Shown here in pieces: positions 1,721 to 57,549 of a DNA stretch of 64,000 bases. The notes beneath the pieces are model-generated. The model saw nothing but the letters and a program-made list of their open reading frames with translations. It did not search any database and had not been told where the DNA came from. The position numbers and the translations under genes were made by a program. This DNA comes from a virus. Taxonomy: Duplodnaviria; Heunggongvirae; Uroviricota; Caudoviricetes. How positions within the stretch are numbered: the stretch's first letter is position 1; each line of letters starts with the position of its first letter. The stretch lies in IMG/VR virus record IMGVR_UViG_2744054962_000001; one strand, given 5' to 3'.

Positions 1721-1999
1721 TCTCCTCTGTTCAAACTGAGTTTTCGACTCAAAAATTACTTTAAAAGGCTATAGCCCATTACGTGTGCATTATCAAATTG
1801 TGTACGGCATATCACCGTACTTGTAATATAGAGGTCATTGTTACTTTTTTCAACAGACAAATACAAGCTATGATTGCCAATTGTTAATCACAACCTACCA
1901 TTTAACCTTTACACCGCAGCCGTAGGCATTTAGGCTATATCACATATAAGAAAACAAGTTGTTTCAGACGATAATTATATACGCAAAGGGAACTCTCCA

Positions 2000-2668
2000 A
2001 TGACCAAGATCTTTGTGGTTGGCGGCACAAAGGGCGGGCCTGGCAAATCCACCGTTGCCCAGCAAATTGCCGTTTGCCTGAAAGTCAAAAAGAAGAAGAA
2101 GGTTTATATTACCGATATAGATATTCAGCGCACGACAACGAGCTGGTGTGAAGACCGTCGACAGAACGAAGACCTTGAGCTGATTCCTTTTGCATACGTT
2201 CAGGATGACATCATTAAGCACCTAAAATCGCTTCAGGGTAGAGCTGAGTTTGTAGTGGTAGATGCTGGTGGCTTCGACTCCGAAATTCAGCGACAAGCGA
2301 TGCTGATGGCTGACGTTATCATTATCCCGCTGCGTCCTAAGCGTCGTGATTTGAAATCTTTACGTGACATCGATCCTATTATCGACAATGTTCGCAATGT
2401 AAACGATAAAGTGAAGGTCCGCGCGGTCATGAACCAGTGCCCGGCTTTGCCATCACAAGTGTCTCGCATTCTGGCGGCTAAAGAGATTGTTGAGACGTTT
2501 GGAATCGAGTCTGCGCCAGTCAATCTATATAACCGCAACGTCTATGATGATGCGGAAGAGTCTGGTCGTTCTATCTTTGAAATGACCGGTAGCGAGCGCG
2601 ACAAAAAGGCGGAAGCCGAGTTTGAAGAATTTGTAGATTATCTGTTGAGTCTGGAGGAAGAAGAATAA
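2000..2668 (+). CDS. parA: ParA-family partition ATPase (type Ib, small ParA)
   Basis: Deviant Walker A GGTKGGPGKST near N-terminus, 222 aa, followed by overlapping small DNA-binding gene. Confidence 0.8.
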   Translation: MTKIFVVGGTKGGPGKSTVAQQIAVCLKVKKKKKVYITDIDIQRTTTSWCEDRRQNEDLELIPFAYVQDDIIKHLKSLQGRAEFVVVDAGGFDSEIQRQAMLMADVIIIPLRPKRRDLKSLRDIDPIIDNVRNVNDKVKVRAVMNQCPALPSQVSRILAAKEIVETFGIESAPVNLYNRNVYDDAEESGRSIFEMTGSERDKKAEAEFEEFVDYLLSLEEEE

Positions 2669-3027
2669 TGTCCATGAAAATGGGTGACCTAGCAAAGCGC
2701 AAAGAGCCTGATGCACCGGCTAAGAACACAACTCCTTTGCGCCAACCAGTCAGACCACAAGGACGCCCGACTCGTGGCAAAGAGAAAATTAAAAGCCGCA
2801 CTATGTCACTGGAAGACGAATACTTCGAGCTTCTGGAAATGATGAAGTTTATCCCTCGTTTCGAGAAGTTCACCCGCTCTGATGTGATTCGTGCTGCTAT
2901 TTTCCATCTGGCAGAGAAGTCACCGCAGGAAATCGAGGACATCGTAAAGCTGAACGAGGCGATCACAGCTGCCGATGTCACGATGCGTACCGATGAAATT
3001 AAACGCGAGTTGATGAAGAAAGGTTAA
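2668..3027 (+). CDS. Partition centromere-binding protein (ParG/ParB-like, probable RHH fold)
   Basis: 119 aa, start overlaps parA stop; basic N-terminus and short helical C-terminal domain. Confidence 0.5.
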   Translation: MSMKMGDLAKRKEPDAPAKNTTPLRQPVRPQGRPTRGKEKIKSRTMSLEDEYFELLEMMKFIPRFEKFTRSDVIRAAIFHLAEKSPQEIEDIVKLNEAITAADVTMRTDEIKRELMKKG

Positions 3028-3028
3028 T

Positions 3029-3052
3029 AATGTGGGCTGTCTAGCCCACATT
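3029..3052. terminator. Hairpin terminator after partition operon
   Basis: Inverted repeat AATGTGGGCT gtct AGCCCACATT followed by ATTTTAATT. Confidence 0.55.
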
Positions 3053-3078
3053 ATTTTAATTAAAGTGGAGTGATAATT

Positions 3079-3831
3079 ATGCATTCGTTAGTATTTGCAT
3101 TTAAAAACATACTCAAGAATGTTATAAACATACTAGGGATGTTAAATATTTTTTTGTCTGTGAGGGTGAGGAGAAAAGATATAAAAGATAAATTAAAGGA
3201 ACTTAACAAAGAAAAAGAACAATTAAAAAGCGAAGAAATTATTATTGATTTATACAAGAAAAAACTCGCATCTAGCAAGGGGAAAGCTAATGATAAAATC
3301 AAAGGAAAAATAATTCACTATATTATTGCTAGAGAGTTGGGGAATGATCCTGATAATGAAGATTTGCGACATAATCTTTTTACAAAGATAAAAGAATCAG
3401 AAGAACAGGTTGAAGTTCTGGTTCATCAAAGAGAAGTAAGTGAGCAGGCGAACAAAAAAGAAACGGTTGTCAATTTGTTTTTATTGTATGAAAAAAATAA
3501 ATTGTTTAAAGCTAAGGGGTTGGCTGTGTTTCTTATAGTTATAAACTTAATTATAGTTGCGACTCTCGATCTTCCAGCTTGGTCATTGATTATAAGTTTT
3601 TTTATTCTCTCTTTGATTATGTTGAAAGATCAGATACTTACTATTCGTGTCTCTAAAGGATATTTTGGCACAAGTGCGTATGAAGCGGTTCAATTGCTTA
3701 AATTCATCAGAGAAAATTCAGACAAATTTGACTCAGATGATAATGACGGTAGCCCACGACGGATATTGAATCCGAAGGGAACAACAAAAAAATCAGACAA
3801 CCTATTCGATAAAGGGTGGCAAAATGTTTGA
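3079..3831 (+). CDS. Predicted multi-pass membrane protein in AT-rich island, unknown function
   Basis: ATG at 3079 preceded by GGAG; hydrophobic segments at N-terminus and mid-protein separated by lysine/glutamate-rich segment; local GC far below surroundings. Confidence 0.5.
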   Translation: MHSLVFAFKNILKNVINILGMLNIFLSVRVRRKDIKDKLKELNKEKEQLKSEEIIIDLYKKKLASSKGKANDKIKGKIIHYIIARELGNDPDNEDLRHNLFTKIKESEEQVEVLVHQREVSEQANKKETVVNLFLLYEKNKLFKAKGLAVFLIVINLIIVATLDLPAWSLIISFFILSLIMLKDQILTIRVSKGYFGTSAYEAVQLLKFIRENSDKFDSDDNDGSPRRILNPKGTTKKSDNLFDKGWQNV

Positions 3832-5177: not shown

Positions 5178-5191
5178 AAAACAATTTGTTT
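5178..5191 (+). promoter_or_regulatory. Conserved palindrome AAACAAnTTGTTT upstream of extended SD (family member)
   Basis: AAACAATTTGTTT 20 bp upstream of ATG 5211; same motif recurs at 17422, 32912, 45666, 55884, 56613. Confidence 0.4.
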
Positions 5192-5210
5192 AAAAAACAA
5201 AGGAAAGCAC

Positions 5211-32890: not shown

Positions 32891-32940
32891 ATCGCAATTA
32901 TCTTATTAAGAAAACAATTTGTTTAAAAGGATAAGAAAAC

Positions 32941-52801: not shown

Positions 52802-53395
52802 ATGATTGCAGCCGAAAAAATCAAACAGCGAAAGCGCGACAACTCTCTTCGTGACCTCTGGAGAACACCTGACTGGCTGTTTTCTGCCATTCAACGTTAT
52901 CTTGGAGTGACATTTGATGTTGACGTTGCCTGCAACAAGGACAATGCGAAGCTGCCTAATTTCATAGGCGTTGAGCGTGATGCTTTGAAATCTGAATGGG
53001 GAAAGCCAGGTACAATTGCCTTCCTCAATCCACCCTACTCCAAAATCTCCCCCTGGATTGATGCGGCTATACGTGAGCAGGCTCGCGGAGTTACAACAGT
53101 GATGCTAATTCCTCAATCCCTCGATACAAAGTGGTATGAGCGTGCAACAGAGTGTGCGAATGAGACGATTATTCTGTCTGGTGGCCGCGTAGCGTTTGTC
53201 GAGCCTGACGTCAATTTGGGTCAGGTAGAAGTAAACATCAACCCCGGTGGCAGTATGCTCGTTGTTTTTCGAGGATTCTGTCAGGACGCTGGGCACTCTA
53301 TAAGCAAGATCCCTTTGGACGTCATGAAAAGTCTGGGAGGGTATGATCCTGCGAATGTGATCAGGAAAAAAAGACCATCAAAGAAGGCTGCTTAG
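52802..53395 (+). CDS. Orphan DNA N6-adenine methyltransferase (phage Dam-like)
   Basis: Catalytic NPPY motif (FLNPPYSK); 197 aa with no adjacent restriction gene. Confidence 0.65.
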   Translation: MIAAEKIKQRKRDNSLRDLWRTPDWLFSAIQRYLGVTFDVDVACNKDNAKLPNFIGVERDALKSEWGKPGTIAFLNPPYSKISPWIDAAIREQARGVTTVMLIPQSLDTKWYERATECANETIILSGGRVAFVEPDVNLGQVEVNINPGGSMLVVFRGFCQDAGHSISKIPLDVMKSLGGYDPANVIRKKRPSKKAA

Positions 53396-53416
53396 TTTGT
53401 TCTGGCGTCTGTAATT

Positions 53417-53480
53417 AGCCTGCTTCTGTATATATAAATAACTACATATTAATTATTAATATACGGAAGCAGGCTGTTTT
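53417..53480. terminator. Long AT-rich hairpin, second copy of the 4255-4316 family
   Basis: AGCCTGCTTCTGTATAT ... ATATACGGAAGCAGGCT with one G-U wobble, followed by GTTTT. Confidence 0.5.
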
Positions 53481-53581
53481 ATATCAGAGACTCCCAGACC
53501 TGAACACCACTACAGAATCCACTAGAACCCCTTCCCAGACGCTTTAAAATCGATTTTATGAACCACTTTAAGGAAACCAAC

Positions 53582-53812
53582 ATGTCATATCCGACTAATG
53601 TCGTTGCGCTCGTAGAGAGCGATTTTCTGGCCCAGGCTCGTGAAATGATGAAAGATCGTGAGCAGGCTTTCAACTTGTACGAATGGGCAATTAAGTGCTT
53701 GCATCTTGGGGAGCATCGCGAACTTGTTGAACAGCTTTTAGGTGAGTTGATCAACGAGGTGTTTGCCTTGAATGTTCAACTACATGGTCGAAAAAATAAT
53801 CAATCGAAATGA
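53582..53812 (+). CDS. Hypothetical protein
   Basis: ATG at 53582 preceded by AAGGAAACCAAC; 76 aa. Confidence 0.4.
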   Translation: MSYPTNVVALVESDFLAQAREMMKDREQAFNLYEWAIKCLHLGEHRELVEQLLGELINEVFALNVQLHGRKNNQSK

Positions 53813-54395
53813 TAGATAAGTACAAACTATTCATAAAGTGAATTGTAAGTGCTAAGATCTGATAGTTTCCAGTCGTAGACTGGAGACTCGACCTGATGGG
53901 TGGGGGTAAGCGTCACTGGCGTCAGGTTTAAAAAAGCTCACTACCAGCGTAGAACCGGTGCCGTTTAGGTGTCGGGGAAGGGGGAACCAAAGTGAGCAGA
54001 GACAAGGGTCACTTTATGATTGTCGAGTCTGGGGTGTTTCGAGAGGTTGAATCCAGTACTCCCCTTCATAAAGTGTGGGAAGATCTCGGTTCTGGGGTGC
54101 TGTCATCCATAACTTCCCAAGTCTAAGCTGGCAGTAGACTTAGACCATAGCTTTTCAGGTTATGAAACGACCAGGTTGGTGAGGAATTTTATACTCACCT
54201 CCCTGGGAGAGTATTACCTGAAAAGACAACCTCTCACTTCGTTCGAGGTGAACTTCACTCACTTCGTTCGTTCAGTTCAGGTTTATAAAAAACCTGTTCT
54301 GGGAAGTAATTTGTTTATTTTAATAATTATTAACACGCACGCGTGTGCGCACGCGCGAGGAAAAAATCGGCGCGGCGCTTGATTCAGGAGTTTAT
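53813..54395. other. ORF-poor structured region (candidate ncRNA or regulatory region) ending in a 25-bp alternating purine-pyrimidine tract
   Basis: No ORF of 60 aa or more on + strand across about 360 bp; multiple local hairpins; direct repeat TCACTTCGTTCG x2; Z-DNA-prone ACACGCACGCGTGTGCGCACGCGCG at 54333-54357. Confidence 0.3.
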
Positions 54396-54989
54396 ATGAC
54401 GACGAAGACACCAGCCCGATCGCAAGCAAAAACTCGCAAAAAAGCCAAAAACAAAAATTCTCCCCGCACCAATCCAACAACGCCTGTCGTAGAGTTCAAT
54501 CCCCAGCTCAAAACCGTGAAAATCTTTAGTGATGGCTCTTGCCTTAAAAATCCGGGTGGCCCGGGCGGTTACGGTATCGTTCTCCAGTATCGTGGTGAGG
54601 AACGCGAGTTCTCAGATGGTTTTCATAGCACCACCAATAACCGCATGGAGATGATGGGCGCACTTATCGGGCTGGAGCGTTTGAAATATCCATGCAACGT
54701 TATTTTGTACTCTGATAGCCAGTATCTGAAAAACGGCATGACACAGTGGATGAAATGGTGGAAACGTAATGGATGGATGACTTCTGATAAAAAACCGGTA
54801 AAGAATGTTGATCTGTGGAAACGTCTGGATGAGGCCGCAAGTCGACATAATGTTCGCTGGAAGTGGGTTAAAGGTCACGCCGGGCATCGTGAAAATGAAA
54901 TATGTGATCGACTCGCGAAGATCGCAGCTTTTTCAGCAGCAGATATGCCTCACAAGAAAGATATTGGTTTTGTTTATAACAAGTGGTAA
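54396..54989 (+). CDS. rnhA: Ribonuclease HI with basic N-terminal extension
   Basis: [49 protein letters not shown] match RNase HI; SD CAGGAG upstream of ATG 54396. Confidence 0.85.
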
Positions 54990-55134
54990 GTAAGTGTTTA
55001 CCTATCATTTTAAATCATGTATCTTATCAGCGTCAGGATGACAATGTGTCGGTAAGACACAGTTCCAGGATGGAACGAGAAAGGCGGCTGGCAATCGCCA
55101 GCCGCAACTCTTTCTGACACTGGATGGAGTCCAC

Positions 55135-55629
55135 ATGGCACGTCAAACCTATTTCACTTCTGCAACTAAACGTCCTCGTTCTTTACGTCAAATTTTGGCC
55201 GAATTGTTTAGCGGTCGTGTTATGTCACGTCTTGATGAACTAGAGACTACCGTTCGGTTGCTGAATGAACGTTTAGATAATCAAGCGTCAGTTGTTGCGA
55301 ACGTGGGGGCGATTGTTGCCTCTGGTTCTTCACGCGAAGCGAAAAGTACACGGCCTTTAGTGAAGGAGAAAAACAACAAGGACAGTTCGAATGGAAAATT
55401 TTCAAAGAAAGAGGCTGAAACCAATGGCCTACGTTCTCATTATAGTTTCACTGGCGACGGTAGCCGTTCCAGCCGGCCAGAGCCTTTTGATGCCGGGTTC
55501 ATCCATCACCACACCTCCGTCGACGACAATTACCACCACTCCAGTAGAGCGTCCTGTCACTCTGGATGGGATGACGGTGGATGCGATACCTCAAGTTCAT
55601 CCGGTTACTCAGGATCATGCTGTGACTAA
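55135..55629 (+). CDS. Hypothetical protein; 3-prime half overlaps an alternative-frame ORF and may not be translated as called
   Basis: Coiled-coil-like N-terminus then low-complexity Ser/His/Cys-rich tail; overlapping ORF 55391-55642 has a hydrophobic N-terminus. Confidence 0.3.
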   Translation: MARQTYFTSATKRPRSLRQILAELFSGRVMSRLDELETTVRLLNERLDNQASVVANVGAIVASGSSREAKSTRPLVKEKNNKDSSNGKFSKKEAETNGLRSHYSFTGDGSRSSRPEPFDAGFIHHHTSVDDNYHHSSRASCHSGWDDGGCDTSSSSGYSGSCCD

Positions 55630-55638
55630 GGCGGTTGT

Positions 55639-55827
55639 ATGAACTGGTTTTCAAATCACTTTGGAAAAATTTGGCTGGCAATTCTTGCCCTCATGGCCGC
55701 CGGTTGGGTATCGAACATTATAAAACTTGTTTGCTCTGGCGATCTCCAGTTTCAGGCTGGCATGACCTTGGCTCGTGTAGTTGGGATTTTTGTTTTTCCA
55801 GTCGGTTCGGTACTTGGTTATTTCTGA
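55639..55827 (+). CDS. Small membrane protein
   Basis: 62 aa with two hydrophobic helices. Confidence 0.35.
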   Translation: MNWFSNHFGKIWLAILALMAAGWVSNIIKLVCSGDLQFQAGMTLARVVGIFVFPVGSVLGYF

Positions 55828-55920
55828 CGGCTGTTAGTGCATATGCATTGACCATCTTTGCGTAAGCAATTTATGAAACTATAAAACAACTTGTTTTGAC
55901 AAATAACAAAAGGAAAACAC

Positions 55921-56346
55921 ATGTTAGGTTTCTTCAAAAAGAAAACTCGTAAAGCAGTTATCGAAGTCAAAAAAATGGAGAACCGTGATGCGGTTGAGGC
56001 CACCGTGTGGGGCGCGTACATGATCTCCTATGCCGACGGCACATGTGACGCAAAAGAAATTGCCATTCTTGAGAAGACAATTGCAGCTCTGCCTGCGTTT
56101 TCTCCGTTTGCTGGTGAAATTGCCCAAATGAGCGCCAATATCCGTGCTCGTTACGAAGCGTCCCCTCGTTCTGCTAATGCACAGGCTATTCGTGAGCTGT
56201 CTGATATTGCGGGTACTCCAGAGGCGGTCGATGTTCTGTGTCTGTGCCTTGATATTGCCGATCAGGATGGCATTGGTGAACAAGAAGAGCAGGCACTGAA
56301 AAAGATCGCCCAGGCGCTTCAGTTGTCACTGGATGCTTATCTCTAA
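55921..56346 (+). CDS. Hypothetical protein, possibly TerB-like
   Basis: 141 aa, all-helical acidic protein; TerB resemblance is by overall pattern only. Confidence 0.35.
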   Translation: MLGFFKKKTRKAVIEVKKMENRDAVEATVWGAYMISYADGTCDAKEIAILEKTIAALPAFSPFAGEIAQMSANIRARYEASPRSANAQAIRELSDIAGTPEAVDVLCLCLDIADQDGIGEQEEQALKKIAQALQLSLDAYL

Positions 56347-56504
56347 TGCTTGAGAGATTCCGGCTTGTGATCGTCATTGCTCTTCTGGTGATGGCGGTGT
56401 TGGTGGATTTTACGGGAAAGATGATGTCTGTCATTTCTGATGGCGTCCTCATTGGTCTGGCGATCTACTTCGCTTATCCGCTAGTCCGTAAAGCAACGTG
56501 TTAA
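56346..56504 (+). CDS. Small membrane protein (52 aa)
   Basis: ATG overlaps upstream stop (TAATG); two hydrophobic helices; followed by hairpin terminator. Confidence 0.3.
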   Translation: MLERFRLVIVIALLVMAVLVDFTGKMMSVISDGVLIGLAIYFAYPLVRKATC

Positions 56505-56506
56505 TA

Positions 56507-56533
56507 ACAAGGGCCAAATGGCCCTTGTGTTTC
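56507..56533 (+). terminator. Hairpin terminator
   Basis: ACAAGGGCC aaat GGCCCTTGT followed by GTTT. Confidence 0.55.
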
Positions 56534-56643
56534 GTTGACCGAAATAGAGAGTTTGCACCTTTACGTTTAGCTTGCTCCCCTTTTATGCCACATCACAATA
56601 AAGCCAATAAGAAAACAACTTGTTTAAGAATTAGGAAAAACAC

Positions 56644-57213
56644 ATGTGCAAGAAATGCAAAGCGATAGCTGATGAACAAAACGCCTTATTCGAAGAAATG
56701 GATGCTAATGAACTGGTCAAAATGTTAGCCATTCTTCGAGGAATAGAAGACGTTTCCATATTTGAGAGAGTGGTTACAGCACTTAATTTTGAGTCCACCT
56801 TTGAAGAGCCAACTCAGGTTGTAGCTTTAGCACATCATTTCGGTGTTCATTATCTTGCTGAAAAAGAGCGCGCTGATAAGTTGCAGGCGACTTTGGATAT
56901 GGTGAGCGAGACTCAACGAACTGATGACACTAACAAGAGTGAGACGATTATTGCCAGCAAAGATCGTGAAATTGCTGGGCTTAAATCCTCTCTAACGATG
57001 TTGATGTCTGCGTTCAATCTTATGTCTTCTCAGGCGGGTTATAAAATGCCATCACTAAACAGCGATGATCCGATGGCCGTTCGTCAGCTTTTGGGAGCAA
57101 TGGCCGACCAACTCGACGACACAAAGAGTCGCCTTGAAGACATGATGCGTGAGTTAAGCCATCGACATAACCTCGCAACACAACCACACAAAGTCTTTCA
57201 AAGCTCTAATTGA
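56644..57213 (+). CDS. Hypothetical protein
   Basis: 189-aa ORF preceded by AAAACAACTTGTTT motif and GGAAAAACACATG. Confidence 0.45.
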   Translation: MCKKCKAIADEQNALFEEMDANELVKMLAILRGIEDVSIFERVVTALNFESTFEEPTQVVALAHHFGVHYLAEKERADKLQATLDMVSETQRTDDTNKSETIIASKDREIAGLKSSLTMLMSAFNLMSSQAGYKMPSLNSDDPMAVRQLLGAMADQLDDTKSRLEDMMRELSHRHNLATQPHKVFQSSN

Positions 57214-57217
57214 TCTG

Positions 57218-57241
57218 ATATGGCCGCATGATCGGCCATAT
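57218..57241 (+). terminator. Hairpin terminator
   Basis: ATATGGCCG catgat CGGCCATAT. Confidence 0.5.
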
Positions 57242-57267
57242 TGTGTTGATAAAAACAAGGGTGAAAA

Positions 57268-57549
57268 ATGGCATACGGTACAGGGATTTACAACAATAAA
57301 GGAATTAACGTTACTGGCTTCCTTACACCTATTTTTTTTCTTGATCGATTTACGGCGTCATCAGGCTCTAAGACGTACTCTAATCCGCCACCGGGTAAAT
57401 CACTACATGCCGTGTGGTCATTAATGCCTCTTAACAACGACAACTACATCAATTTACCTGTTCCAAATGTTACTATTAATGGAAATACGGTTAGTTGGTC
57501 AAATTTATATACGGGGCTTGGTTCTTACATATACACATACTGGGGATAA
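57268..57549 (+). CDS. Hypothetical protein (AT-rich module, gene 1)
   Basis: 93 aa, Asn/Tyr/Gly-rich; lower GC than neighbours. Confidence 0.4.
   Translation: MAYGTGIYNNKGINVTGFLTPIFFLDRFTASSGSKTYSNPPPGKSLHAVWSLMPLNNDNYINLPVPNVTINGNTVSWSNLYTGLGSYIYTYWG

What the first reader, a model, noticed from the sequence alone, without database searches (positions are those of the whole stretch)
55135..56504. Cluster of small membrane proteins with an overlapping-frame ORF pair and a possible TerB-like protein
Gene 55135-55629 has a plausible coiled-coil N-terminus but a low-complexity tail that overlaps an alternative-frame ORF (55391-55642) starting with a signal-peptide-like helix. Downstream lie a 62-aa membrane protein, a 141-aa helical protein that may be TerB-like, and a 52-aa membrane protein overlapping its stop. 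The overlap could be an embedded gene or a frameshift; the module as a whole resembles a membrane-stress or exclusion unit.
Basis: partly seen in the sequence, partly recalled or inferred. Interest (0 to 1): 0.45.

Follow-up and report, generated by a model that had tools for sequence, protein, structure and literature searches.

The report
Nested phage gene pair beside TciA/TciB
In an E. coli phage-plasmid of the SSU5/pLF82 type, one stretch of DNA is read in two frames to make two conserved proteins, and it sits next to an already-known, function-untested TerB-like "tellurite resistance" gene pair borrowed from the phage P1 repertoire.

Summary
The window is an SSU5/pLF82 (Cyrano)-type phage-plasmid. 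The stretch holds two separable units.

Unit 1 (55135-55827) is gA, gB and gC. gA (164 aa) is a long helix plus a probably disordered Ser/His/Cys-rich tail. gB (83 aa) has a signal/anchor helix and a Pro/Thr-rich tail, and is encoded in the +1 frame inside gA's 3' half. gC (62 aa) has two TM helices, and its start overlaps gB's stop (ATGA).

Comparison of about 90 loci in 10 lineages indicates a genuine dual-coding overlap, not a frameshift. Codon periodicity switches to gB's frame. pN/pS is 0.55 for gB and 0.49 for gA's N-part. gB's SD and start codon are conserved. Both frames have no stops in any lineage, while the third sense frame has 3-9. gA's C-terminal motif survives in very distant homologues.

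Unit 2 (55883-56528) is a P1-type tciA-tciB cassette. TciA is 79% identical to P1 TciA, passes Pfam TerB and has a TerB-like fold. TciB is a 2-TM DUF3927 protein. The cassette has its own promoter-like palindrome and terminator, and is absent from about a third of related loci.

All four annotated genes are at the detection floor in the LF82 lysogen. Function is untested. The TerB part is already known; the nested pair appears undescribed.

The parts
55084..55105 (+). G+C-rich stem-loop (9 bp, 8 G-C) 30 nt upstream of the gA start. It is terminator-like on both strands and separates rnhA from gA.
   Evidence: terminator-like scan; sequence.
55135..55629 (+). gA, 164 aa (phrog_10411). It has a basic N-terminus, a short helix (17-25), a long helix (28-70), and a probably disordered Ser/His/Cys-rich tail ending in C-x-SGWD-x2-G-x-D...CCD. 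An SD (GGAG, 55126-55129) precedes the start.
   Evidence: Distant homologues keep the tail motif. Frame kept open: P 0.03-0.13 per lineage. No stop-gain in 81 loci.
55378..55382 (+). Shine-Dalgarno (AAGGA) for gB, 8 nt before ATG 55391. An SD-like element (AAGGA, GGAG or GGAAGG) is present in every lineage examined.
   Evidence: Alignment; distant lineages.
55391..55642 (+). gB, 83 aa (phrog_15659), in the +1 frame of gA. It has a basic n-region (MENFQRKRLKP), a hydrophobic helix (12-28), a Pro/Thr-rich stretch, and conserved LDGM..D and VT(K/E)A.. motifs at the end. Its stop TGA (55640-55642) overlaps the gC ATG.
55639..55827 (+). gC, 62 aa (phrog_6006), with two TM helices. It is translationally coupled to gB (ATGA; GTGA in Klebsiella). 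It is absent or truncated in some lineages. Stand-alone relatives occur in Aeromonas and Vibrio phages.
55883..55897 (+). Palindrome AAAACAAcTTGTTTT. It is one of six copies in the window of a promoter- or operator-like element that precedes the RBS and ATG of + strand genes. Here it lies 23 nt before tciA.
   Evidence: 11 matches against 0.41 expected. Also present upstream of tciA in the distant locus L090.
55921..56346 (+). tciA, 141 aa: a soluble TerB-domain protein and an orthologue of phage P1 TciA.
   Evidence: Pfam TerB, 31.5 bits against 24.4; phrog_632; 78.7% identity to P1 TciA; confident all-helical model, with 2H5N and 2OU3 as best folds.
56346..56504 (+). tciB, 52 aa: a DUF3927 protein with two TM helices. 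Its ATG overlaps the tciA stop (TAATG).
   Evidence: PF13064, 48.3 bits against 25; phrog_1470; (39% identity to P1 TciB, E 8e-11).
56507..56528 (+). Intrinsic-terminator-like hairpin (9 bp) followed by GTTTCGTT. It closes the tciA-tciB unit, and there is no tciC here.
   Evidence: P1 comparison.

Best explanation
The stretch holds two independent accessory units of an SSU5/pLF82-type phage-plasmid. Both encode small proteins that act at or near the inner membrane, and both are silent in the lysogen.

Unit 1 is a coupled three-cistron unit, gA-gB-gC, containing a true same-strand dual-coding overlap.
- Ribosomes starting at 55135 make gA, a cytoplasmic protein with an oligomerising helix and a disordered His/Cys/Ser/Asp-rich tail.
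- Ribosomes starting at the internal SD and ATG (55378-55382 and 55391), in the +1 frame, make gB. gB is a small Sec-targeted or membrane-anchored Pro/Thr-rich protein.
- Termination of gB at ATGA reinitiates gC, a 2-TM protein.

Unit 2 is the P1-type tciA-tciB cassette. It consists of a soluble TerB-fold protein and its tiny 2-TM DUF3927 partner, expressed from its own promoter-like element and closed by a terminator.

Shown here: the gene structures, conservation and selection in both frames, family membership of TciA and TciB, separability of the two units, and lack of expression in one lysogen.

Inferred: translation of gB from its own start, export of gB, membrane docking of TciA on TciB, and expression during lytic development.

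The biological role is unknown. The most probable guess is protection or remodelling of the envelope of the infected cell. The confidence given here refers to the anatomy and dual-coding claim. For the functional guess I would give about 0.3.
For: Identity of the element: 100% match to an E. coli IncFIB phage-plasmid and 98.9% to phage Cyrano (pLF82).

Evidence for dual coding:
- Mean pairwise divergence by gA codon position is 0.34/0.22/0.52 upstream. Inside the overlap it is 0.37/0.285/0.26, so periodicity switches to gB's frame.
- pN/pS is 0.49 for the gA N-part, 0.55 for gB, and 1.11 for the gA tail.
- Within-clade SNPs, relative to the neutral expectation: changes nonsynonymous only in gB 0.46, only in the gA tail 0.56, in both 0.33. 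No stop-creating change was seen in either frame.
- P(gA frame open | gB protein) is 0.03-0.13 in each of 8 lineages.
- 74 of the 81 loci first scanned (the window included) were scored with both ORFs intact, in 51 protein-pair variants. Of the other seven, two proved intact on inspection, one is cut by a contig end, one has lost gA's N-terminus but keeps gB and gC, and three carry 1-nt frameshifts.
- gB's SD, its start codon, and its stop position (10-13 nt after gA's stop) are conserved even in lineages where gA's N-part is only 16-36% identical.
- gA's C-terminal motif is retained in distant homologues P0051 and P0058.
- A frame control gives 0/0 stops in the two coding frames against 3-9 in the third sense frame.

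TciA and TciB.

Separate units.

Silent in the lysogen: PMC9928086 S1 Table.
Against: - There is no direct evidence of translation (no ribosome profiling or proteomics) for gB or for gA's tail.
- Selection on gA's tail is the weakest link. Its pN/pS is 1.11. The SNP ratio of 0.56 rises to about 0.8 if only gA's own synonymous rate is used as the neutral proxy, because synonymous rates are heterogeneous (0.68 in N against 1.39 in gC).
- gB's openness alone is not surprising given gA's tail composition (P 0.10-0.72 in most lineages).
- Lineages share ancestry, so the per-lineage probabilities are not independent.
- Signal-peptide status of gB rests only on hydropathy and charge.
- Expression data come from one strain and do not include induced cultures.
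- Nothing here tests function. PADLOC and NCBIfam gave no hits for gA, gB or gC.
Confidence: 0.75

Rival explanations
1. Only gB is functional in the overlap. gA's real product is the N-terminal helical domain, and its tail is a tolerated read-through. The frame might be kept open only so that gA ribosomes reach the gC start, or for no reason at all.
For: - gA-tail pN/pS is 1.11.
- The tail is predicted disordered (pLDDT below 50) and low-complexity.
- The SNP ratio for gA-only nonsynonymous changes is 0.56-0.8, depending on the neutral proxy.
Against: - gA's frame is open in all 10 lineages, although each has only a 3-13% chance of that given gB's protein.
- No stop-gain was found in 81 loci.
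- Invariant residues Cys141, SGWD, G149, D151 and the C-terminal Cys163 are kept even where gB's residues change, for example in the Klebsiella lineage.
- The motif and the His-rich stretch persist in P0051 and P0058, whose N-parts are 16-36% identical.
- Changes nonsynonymous in both frames are the rarest class (0.33).
Confidence: 0.15
2. Only gA is coding. The +1 ORF is a by-product of gA's Ser/Gly/Asp/His-rich tail, whose codons rarely create +1 stops.
For: - P(gB frame open | gA tail protein) is as high as 0.46-0.72 in some lineages.
- RefSeq, SSU5 and Cyrano annotate only gA.
Against: - Codon periodicity and pN/pS in the overlap follow gB's frame, not gA's.
- A conserved SD and ATG/GTG precede gB, and an ATGA/GTGA junction links it to gC.
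- gB's n-region, hydrophobic helix and LDGM motif are conserved in all 10 lineages.
- P(gB open) is 0.014 in L090 and 0.096 in L011.
- Gene callers are known to suppress embedded ORFs (PMC6139136).
Confidence: 0.06
3. The overlap is a programmed ribosomal frameshift (or slippage) site that yields a gA-gB fusion protein.
For: - Databases hold about 168-aa proteins made of gA's N-part fused to gB's C-part (P0028-P0030, P0033, P0039).
- An A_AAT_TTT heptamer lies at gB codons 2-4 in 5 of 10 lineages.
Against: - The fusions arise from 1-nt changes in a T4 run (55485-55488) or an A5 run (55369-55373). These runs are absent from other lineages.
- No slippery heptamer or homopolymer is conserved.
- Going from gA to gB needs a +1 shift, and no pause or stop context for one exists.
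- A fusion model does not explain gB's conserved SD, start codon and signal-like N-terminus, nor gA's open tail.
Confidence: 0.03
4. gA/gB is a second, Rz/Rz1-like two-component spanin (overlapped architecture), with gC as a holin-like partner.
For: - The architecture matches the 'overlapped' spanin class. The small Pro-rich product is in the +1 frame, starts at 0.52 of the larger gene's length, and ends just beyond it (PMC6139136).
- gA has a long helix.
Against: - gA has no TM segment (maximum Kyte-Doolittle 1.03).
- gB has no cysteine in this window and no conserved lipobox.
- The genome already has holin, endolysin, Rz and Rz1 about 50 kb away (CYRAN_22-25).
- The locus sits among replication and nucleotide-metabolism genes.
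Confidence: 0.03
5. This is the first reader's reading: the five genes form one prophage-expressed membrane-stress or superinfection-exclusion module that protects the lysogen.
For: - Three of the five products are small membrane proteins.
- TerB domains occur in ter operons linked to phage and colicin resistance, and in the defence systems Shango, Bunzi and Dionysus.
- The synteny RNase H - gA/gB - TerB - DUF3927 recurs in deep lineages.
Against: - In LF82, CYRAN_83-86 are at the detection floor in LB and are not morons.
- tciA/tciB are missing from about a third of gA/gB loci.
- tciA/tciB are also carried by strictly virulent phages.
- In P1 they lie in the C1-repressed ban operon.
- There were no PADLOC hits.
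Confidence: 0.12

Closest known systems
[quoted passage not shown]
   Same: - The 141-aa protein is 78.7% identical to P1 TciA over its full length.
- The 52-aa protein is 39% identical to P1 TciB.
- Gene order is the same, with overlapping stop and start codons.
- As in P1-like elements, the cassette is variably present (PMC9603915).
   Different: - There is no tciC: a terminator follows tciB directly.
- The genomic context differs. Here the cassette follows RNase H and gA/gB/gC and has its own palindromic upstream element. In P1 it lies in the C1-controlled ban operon among tRNAs.
- Function is assigned 'by homology' only in P1 as well.
TerB of the terZABCDE tellurite-resistance operon, and solved TerB-family structures (2OU3, 2H5N)
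   Same: - Pfam PF05099 is matched above the gathering score.
- Two acidic 'ADG...E'-type segments are invariant in the family alignment: YADGTCDAKE and IADQDGIGEQEE (their equivalence to the TerB signature is from my own knowledge).
   Different: - Sequence identity is only 10-18%, and PDB sequences give no significant match.
- No TerC, TerD, TerZ or TerA partners are present.
- The only partner is the tiny DUF3927 membrane protein.
Lambda Rz/Rz1 and P2 lysB/lysC (embedded or overlapped two-component spanins)
   Same: - A same-strand +1 nested gene encodes a small, Pro-rich, unstructured exported protein inside the 3' half of a larger helical protein.
- The embedded ORF is usually missed by gene callers (PMC6139136).
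   Different: - gA lacks the N-terminal TM domain.
- gB lacks a lipobox cysteine.
- The locus is not in the lysis cassette, and the genome has a separate Rz/Rz1 pair.
- This is a resemblance of architecture, not of family.
TerB-containing anti-phage systems (Shango SngA, Bunzi BnzA, Dionysus DinB)
   Same: A TerB-domain protein is encoded next to membrane proteins, with a proposed membrane-surveillance role (bioRxiv 10.1101/2025.09.30.679545).
   Different: - No PADLOC model matched at E below 0.1.
- No helicase, ATPase or pore-forming partner is present.
- The genes are carried by phages, virulent ones included, rather than by defence islands.
Overprinted (de novo) overlapping genes of viruses
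   Same: - One product lies in a disordered, compositionally biased region.
- Taxonomic range is very narrow: 20 hits among 1.84 billion representatives.
- Both frames are under constraint.
   Different: - This is an about 110-kb dsDNA phage-plasmid with no obvious pressure on genome size.
- Which of the two frames is ancestral could not be determined, because both have the same distribution.

Membership tests
TerB domain family (Pfam PF05099) / P1 TciA | Match to the family profile above the curated cut-off | tested here: met
   PF05099 at 31.5 bits against a cut-off of 24.4, residues 33-136. phrog_632 'tellurite resistance' at E 4.8e-63.
TerB domain family (Pfam PF05099) / P1 TciA | Orthology to P1 TciA (full-length, high identity) | tested here: met
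   tblastn gives 78.7% identity over 141/141 residues to P1 tciA. The P1 record is shown.
TerB domain family (Pfam PF05099) / P1 TciA | All-helical TerB fold | tested here: met
TerB domain family (Pfam PF05099) / P1 TciA | Confers tellurite, colicin or phage resistance, or binds metal | not testable with these tools
   The P1 annotation itself says 'by homology'. No experiment was found in the literature searched.
DUF3927 / P1 TciB | Profile match above cut-off, small 2-TM protein, encoded immediately after a TerB gene with overlapping stop and start | tested here: met
   PF13064 at 48.3 bits against 25. phrog_1470. Two hydrophobic segments. TAATG junction. 39% identity to P1 TciB.
Two-component spanin (Rz/Rz1 type) | i-spanin with an N-terminal transmembrane domain | tested here: not met
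   gA's maximum 17-residue Kyte-Doolittle hydropathy is 1.03, with no TM-like segment. The definition is from PMC6139136.
Two-component spanin (Rz/Rz1 type) | o-spanin with a lipoprotein signal (lipobox Cys) | tested here: not met
   gB of this window has no cysteine. Cysteines in other lineages are not at a conserved lipobox position.
Two-component spanin (Rz/Rz1 type) | Location in the lysis cassette | tested here: not met
   Holin, endolysin, Rz and Rz1 are CYRAN_22-25, about 50 kb away.
Same-strand overlapping (dual-coding) gene pair | Both frames open and conserved across divergent relatives, beyond expectation | tested here: met
   0 stops in both frames in 10 lineages, against 3-9 in the third sense frame. 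P(gA open | gB) is 0.03-0.13 per lineage. 74 of 81 loci were scored intact, plus two more on inspection.
Same-strand overlapping (dual-coding) gene pair | Purifying selection detectable in each frame | tested here: inconclusive
   This is clear for gB: pN/pS 0.55, SNP ratio 0.46, and the periodicity switch. For gA's tail the measures disagree. pN/pS is 1.11, while the SNP ratio is 0.56-0.8, there are no stop gains, and the C-terminal motif is invariant.
Same-strand overlapping (dual-coding) gene pair | Independent translation signals for the internal gene | tested here: met
   An SD-like element lies 5-9 nt before a conserved ATG (GTG in K. oxytoca elements) in all lineages. Actual initiation was not tested.
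Same-strand overlapping (dual-coding) gene pair | Both products detected in vivo | not testable with these tools
   No ribosome-profiling or proteomic data were available. The LF82 RNA-seq shows the locus silent in the lysogen.
Known anti-phage defence systems (PADLOC-DB v2) | Match of any component to a defence-system model | tested here: not met
   gA, gB, gC, TciA and TciB gave no hit at E 0.1 or below.

The most novel reading that the evidence does not exclude
gA, gB and gC, with TciA/TciB in the ancestral arrangement, form one previously unrecognised phage-encoded envelope system. Its parts would be a cytoplasmic oligomer with a His/Cys-rich metal-binding tail (gA), an exported Pro/Thr-rich peptide made from the same DNA (gB), and small inner-membrane partners that recruit an amphitropic TerB protein. 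During lytic growth the system would sense or buffer membrane or metal stress, or exclude competing phages and colicins. The nested coding would enforce co-inheritance and fixed stoichiometry. The deep synteny RNase H - gA/gB - TerB - DUF3927 and the His/Cys-rich tail are compatible with this reading. Nothing tested here demonstrates it.
Probability: 0.12. Interest if true: 0.65.

Novelty: new member of a known kind. Interest (0 to 1): 0.42.

Why it matters
- SSU5/pLF82-type phage-plasmids are common in clinical Escherichia, Klebsiella, Salmonella and Enterobacter, with hundreds of PLSDB records matching. Their accessory genes are almost all uncharacterised.
- The analysis shows that a gene (gB) is missing from the RefSeq, SSU5 and Cyrano annotations of these elements. 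It also adds a well-supported same-strand dual-coding pair in a large dsDNA phage, outside the spanin paradigm.
- The pair is a clean test case for how overlapping genes are kept: 10 lineages and both frames intact.
- The 'TerB-like' gene is clarified as simply the P1 tciA/tciB cassette. It is portable, silent in the one lysogen with data (LF82), and has never been tested for function.
- The practical consequence is modest: better annotation and a defined target for ribosome profiling or knock-outs. It does not reveal a new mechanism.

Tried and rejected
- NCBIfam and PADLOC scans of all products: nothing for gA, gB or gC, and no defence model for TciA or TciB.
- Rfam scan of 53300-57300: only two sub-threshold hits.
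- PDB sequence searches with TciA alone and as a profile: no significant hit. The fold search was needed instead.
- Profile search of gA against 1.84 billion representatives: no relatives outside this phage-plasmid group. One low-complexity false positive appeared (P0055). No functional lead came from it.
- AlphaFold2 of gA: only a helix plus a disordered tail (pTM 0.25), so I ran no fold search on it.
- Neighbourhoods of distant gC relatives in Aeromonas and Vibrio phages: stand-alone small ORFs with no informative context.
- Spanin hypothesis: rejected on TM and lipobox criteria and on the presence of a separate lysis cassette.
- Programmed frameshift: rejected, since no slippery site is conserved.
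- The P1 genome paper (PMC523184) is not held, so statements about P1 tci genes rest on the GenBank record and PMC9603915.
- My first SNP script failed on the Cronobacter clade, and my first openness script timed out. I re-ran both.
- My initial statement that gB always ends 13 nt after gA was corrected: it is 10 nt in the K. oxytoca lineage.
Full report
**What the window is.** A 3-kb stretch around the finding is 100% identical to an E. coli IncFIB phage-plasmid (NZ_CP133922). It is 98.9% identical to Escherichia phage Cyrano (pLF82), an SSU5-type phage-plasmid. About 450 PLSDB plasmids from Escherichia, Klebsiella, Salmonella and Shigella match it. Records annotate four genes here: 164 aa, 62 aa, a 'tellurite/colicin resistance' or 'P1 TciA-like' protein, and a DUF3927 or 'P1 TciB-like' protein. 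Upstream lie a Dam methylase and RNase H; downstream lies a conserved 189-aa gene.

**Observation check.** I call them gA (55135-55629), gB (55391-55642, +1 frame), gC (55639-55827), tciA (55921-56346) and tciB (56346-56504).
- Hydropathy gives one signal/anchor-like helix in gB, preceded by four basic residues.
- gC and TciB have two TM-like helices each; gA and TciA have none.
- AlphaFold2 predicts gA as a short helix (17-25), a long helix (28-70), and an unstructured tail (68-164, pLDDT below 50). The overlap with gB lies entirely in that tail.

**Is the overlap real coding in both frames?** PHROGs holds separate families for both frames: phrog_10411 for gA and phrog_15659 for gB. That only shows that annotators have called both, so I tested the question by comparison. 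A distant blastn search found relatives at about 66-68% nucleotide identity in Salmonella, Klebsiella, Enterobacter, Citrobacter and Cronobacter elements. I fetched 9 annotated loci, 3 genome loci, 68 viral contigs, and loci of three distant homologues. The evidence is as follows.

1. *Both ORFs are open in every lineage.* Indels are multiples of three. gB's stop lies 13 nt after gA's stop (10 nt in K. oxytoca elements). Where gC is present, it overlaps gB's stop as ATGA or GTGA.
2. *Codon periodicity switches.* Divergence by gA codon position is 0.34/0.22/0.52 in the upstream part of gA. In the overlap it is 0.37/0.285/0.26, so the most variable position becomes gB's third position. The switch begins at ATG 55391.
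3. *Nei-Gojobori pN/pS.* The values are 0.49 for the gA N-part, 0.55 for gB, and 1.11 for the gA tail read in gA's frame.
4. *Translation signals.* An SD-like element (AAGGA, GGAG or GGAAGG) lies 5-9 nt before gB's ATG in all lineages (GTG in one).
5. *Openness simulation.* Given gB's protein and random synonymous codons, gA's frame stays open in only 3-13% of simulations per lineage. The converse figure is 1-72%.
6. *Within-clade SNPs, scaled to the synonymous rate of the single-coding flanks.* Changes nonsynonymous only in gB occur at 0.46 of the neutral rate, only in gA's tail at 0.56, and in both at 0.33. There are no stop-creating changes, where about 4.7 (gA) and 3.9 (gB) would be expected.
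   - Caveat: synonymous rates differ between the flanks (0.68 against 1.39). With gA's own rate, the gA-tail ratio is about 0.8.
7. *Ascertainment check.* I examined the seven loci first excluded. Two are intact, one is cut by a contig end, one lacks gA's N-terminus but keeps gB and gC, and three have 1-nt frameshifts. None has a stop-gain substitution.
8. *Narrow family with informative outliers.* A profile search of gA against 1.84 billion representatives found only 20 proteins. Among them are distant homologues P0044, P0051 and P0058. Their N-parts are 16-48% identical to the window's, yet they keep the C-terminal signature (C.SGW[DN]..G.D.S..SS..SG..C[C]D) and a His-rich stretch. Their loci keep gB in the +1 frame, with the same n-region, hydrophobic helix, Pro/Thr-rich part, L(D/E)GM..D motif and C-terminal VT.A.. 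ending.
9. *Frame control.* Both frames have 0 stops in 10 lineages. The third sense frame has 3-9, and all but one of the 30 antisense frame readings have 1-6 (one has none). Mean pairwise protein identity is 0.43 for the gA N-part, 0.45 for the gA tail and 0.50 for gB.

I conclude that gB is a real gene. I also conclude that gA's tail is kept translatable and carries a conserved motif. Selection on the tail's sequence is the least secure point.

**Frameshift alternative.** Databases contain about 168-aa gA-gB 'fusions'. They result from single-base changes in a T4 run (55485-55488) or an A5 run (55369-55373), and these runs are not conserved in other lineages. No slippery heptamer is conserved. 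Programmed frameshifting is therefore not supported.

**Spanin alternative.** The architecture is that of 'overlapped' two-component spanins (PMC6139136). However, gA has no TM domain, gB has no lipobox cysteine, and the genome has its own holin, endolysin, Rz and Rz1 (CYRAN_22-25).

**The TerB-like gene.**
- The 141-aa protein passes Pfam TerB and is 78.7% identical to P1 TciA over its full length.
- The 52-aa protein is DUF3927, or TciB.
- In P1, tciA-tciB-tciC lie in the C1-repressed ban operon, and their function is annotated 'by homology' only. In P1-like elements the operon is a variable region that is often lost (PMC9603915).
- The pair also occurs in lambdoid phages between Q and the holin, and in virulent Erwinia, Salmonella and Pseudomonas phages.
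- Here there is no tciC. A terminator (56507-56528) follows tciB.
- TerB domains also occur in the Shango, Bunzi and Dionysus defence systems, whose mechanism is unclear. No PADLOC model matched TciA.

**One module or two?**
- gA/gB are followed by tciA/tciB in about 58 loci and not in about 26.
- gC is missing or truncated in some Klebsiella and Buttiauxella loci and in the two most distant lineages.
- gC has stand-alone relatives in Aeromonas and Vibrio phages.
- tciA is preceded by a palindrome (AAAACAAcTTGTTTT, 55883-55897) that recurs six times in the window. Each copy lies just upstream of an RBS and ATG.

So the stretch holds two separable units. Even so, the order RNase H - gA/gB - TerB - DUF3927 is found in the deepest lineages.

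**Expression.** In LF82 RNA-seq (PMC9928086, S1 Table), CYRAN_83-86 have 5-8 normalised counts in overnight LB. That is the detection floor, and these genes are not among the 13 Cyrano morons. They rise to log2 of about 5.4-6 in the 'B1' samples only. This argues against a constitutively expressed lysogenic-conversion role in that strain. It fits lytic-phase expression, which was not measured.

**Mechanism (inferred).**
- gA mRNA is read in two frames from two starts.
- gB is probably exported or anchored by its N-terminal helix.
- gC translation is coupled to gB's termination.
- TciA probably associates with the membrane through TciB.
- The biological role is unknown. My best guess is envelope protection or remodelling during lytic growth, at about 0.3.

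**Novelty and score.** The TerB/TciB part is already known and annotated. In the literature I could search, I found no description of the nested gA/gB pair, and RefSeq, SSU5 and Cyrano do not annotate gB. It is a new member of a known kind, namely same-strand overlapping phage genes, and its function is unknown. Interest is moderate.

Noticed in passing
window 1951-1965, 5178-5192, 32911-32925, 45663-45677, 55883-55897, 56612-56626: There are six same-orientation copies of TAAG-AAAACAAnTTGTTTA (palindromic core AACAAnTTGTT). Each lies 15-35 nt upstream of an RBS (often GGAAAACAC) and the ATG of a + strand gene. The scan found 11 matches on both strands against 0.41 expected. The motif is also upstream of tciA in the distant locus L090. 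It is likely a phage-specific promoter or operator.
   Followed up: partly
window 53812-54345 (especially 53992-54126): This is an ORF-poor gap of about 530 nt between a small gene and rnhA. The Cyrano equivalent (CYRAN_81, a 44-aa 'hypothetical protein') is transcribed at about 117 normalised counts in LF82 lysogens, about 12-fold above background. It may be a small RNA rather than a protein. Rfam gave no hit.
   Followed up: partly
window 55031-55134: The gA leader carries several GGA motifs. One lies in the loop of the hairpin GTTCC-AGGAT-GGAAC (55062-55076), and two lie at the gA SD (ctGGAtGGAgtccacATG). There is a weak CsrB-like Rfam hit (E 0.11, far below gathering). This could be a CsrA-binding leader, but that is speculative.
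   Followed up: no
window 55369-55373 (A5) and 55485-55488 (T4): Public protein databases contain about 168-aa gA-gB fusion proteins and other chimeras caused by 1-nt changes in these short homopolymers. At least two sequence backgrounds share the T4 event. These are probably assembly errors or sporadic mutants.
   Followed up: partly
locus L074 (IMGVR_UViG_2576861193_000004), gA/gB region: This is a natural recombinant. gA's N-part and gB's N-terminus are of the 'BHD6' type (L008-like), while gA's tail, gB's C-part and gC are of the window type. The breakpoint lies inside the overlap, and both frames remain intact.
   Followed up: no
window 56644-57213: A conserved 189-aa acidic protein (phrog_5508) starts MCKKCK and is preceded by the same palindrome. 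It follows the locus in most lineages whether or not tciA/tciB are present.
   Followed up: no
loci L005, L007, L008, L013, L014, and SSU5 (L098): In lineages lacking tciA/tciB, the same slot between gC and the 189-aa gene is occupied by a Rha-family regulator or antirepressor gene. This suggests a cargo-exchange hotspot.
   Followed up: no
window about 2074-3492 (by collinearity with Cyrano CYRAN_22-25): The canonical lysis cassette (holin, endolysin, Rz, Rz1) is here. Several toxin-antitoxin pairs follow it (KacT-like, RelE/ParE, HicAB) that are expressed in the LF82 lysogen.
   Followed up: no
window 55124-55243, and the +1 frame of the whole of gA: The +1 frame is unusually free of stops upstream of gB as well. 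It is open across the entire gA gene in the Cronobacter lineage (a 166-aa ORF). Codon periodicity there follows gA only, so I treated this as composition and not as coding.
   Followed up: partly
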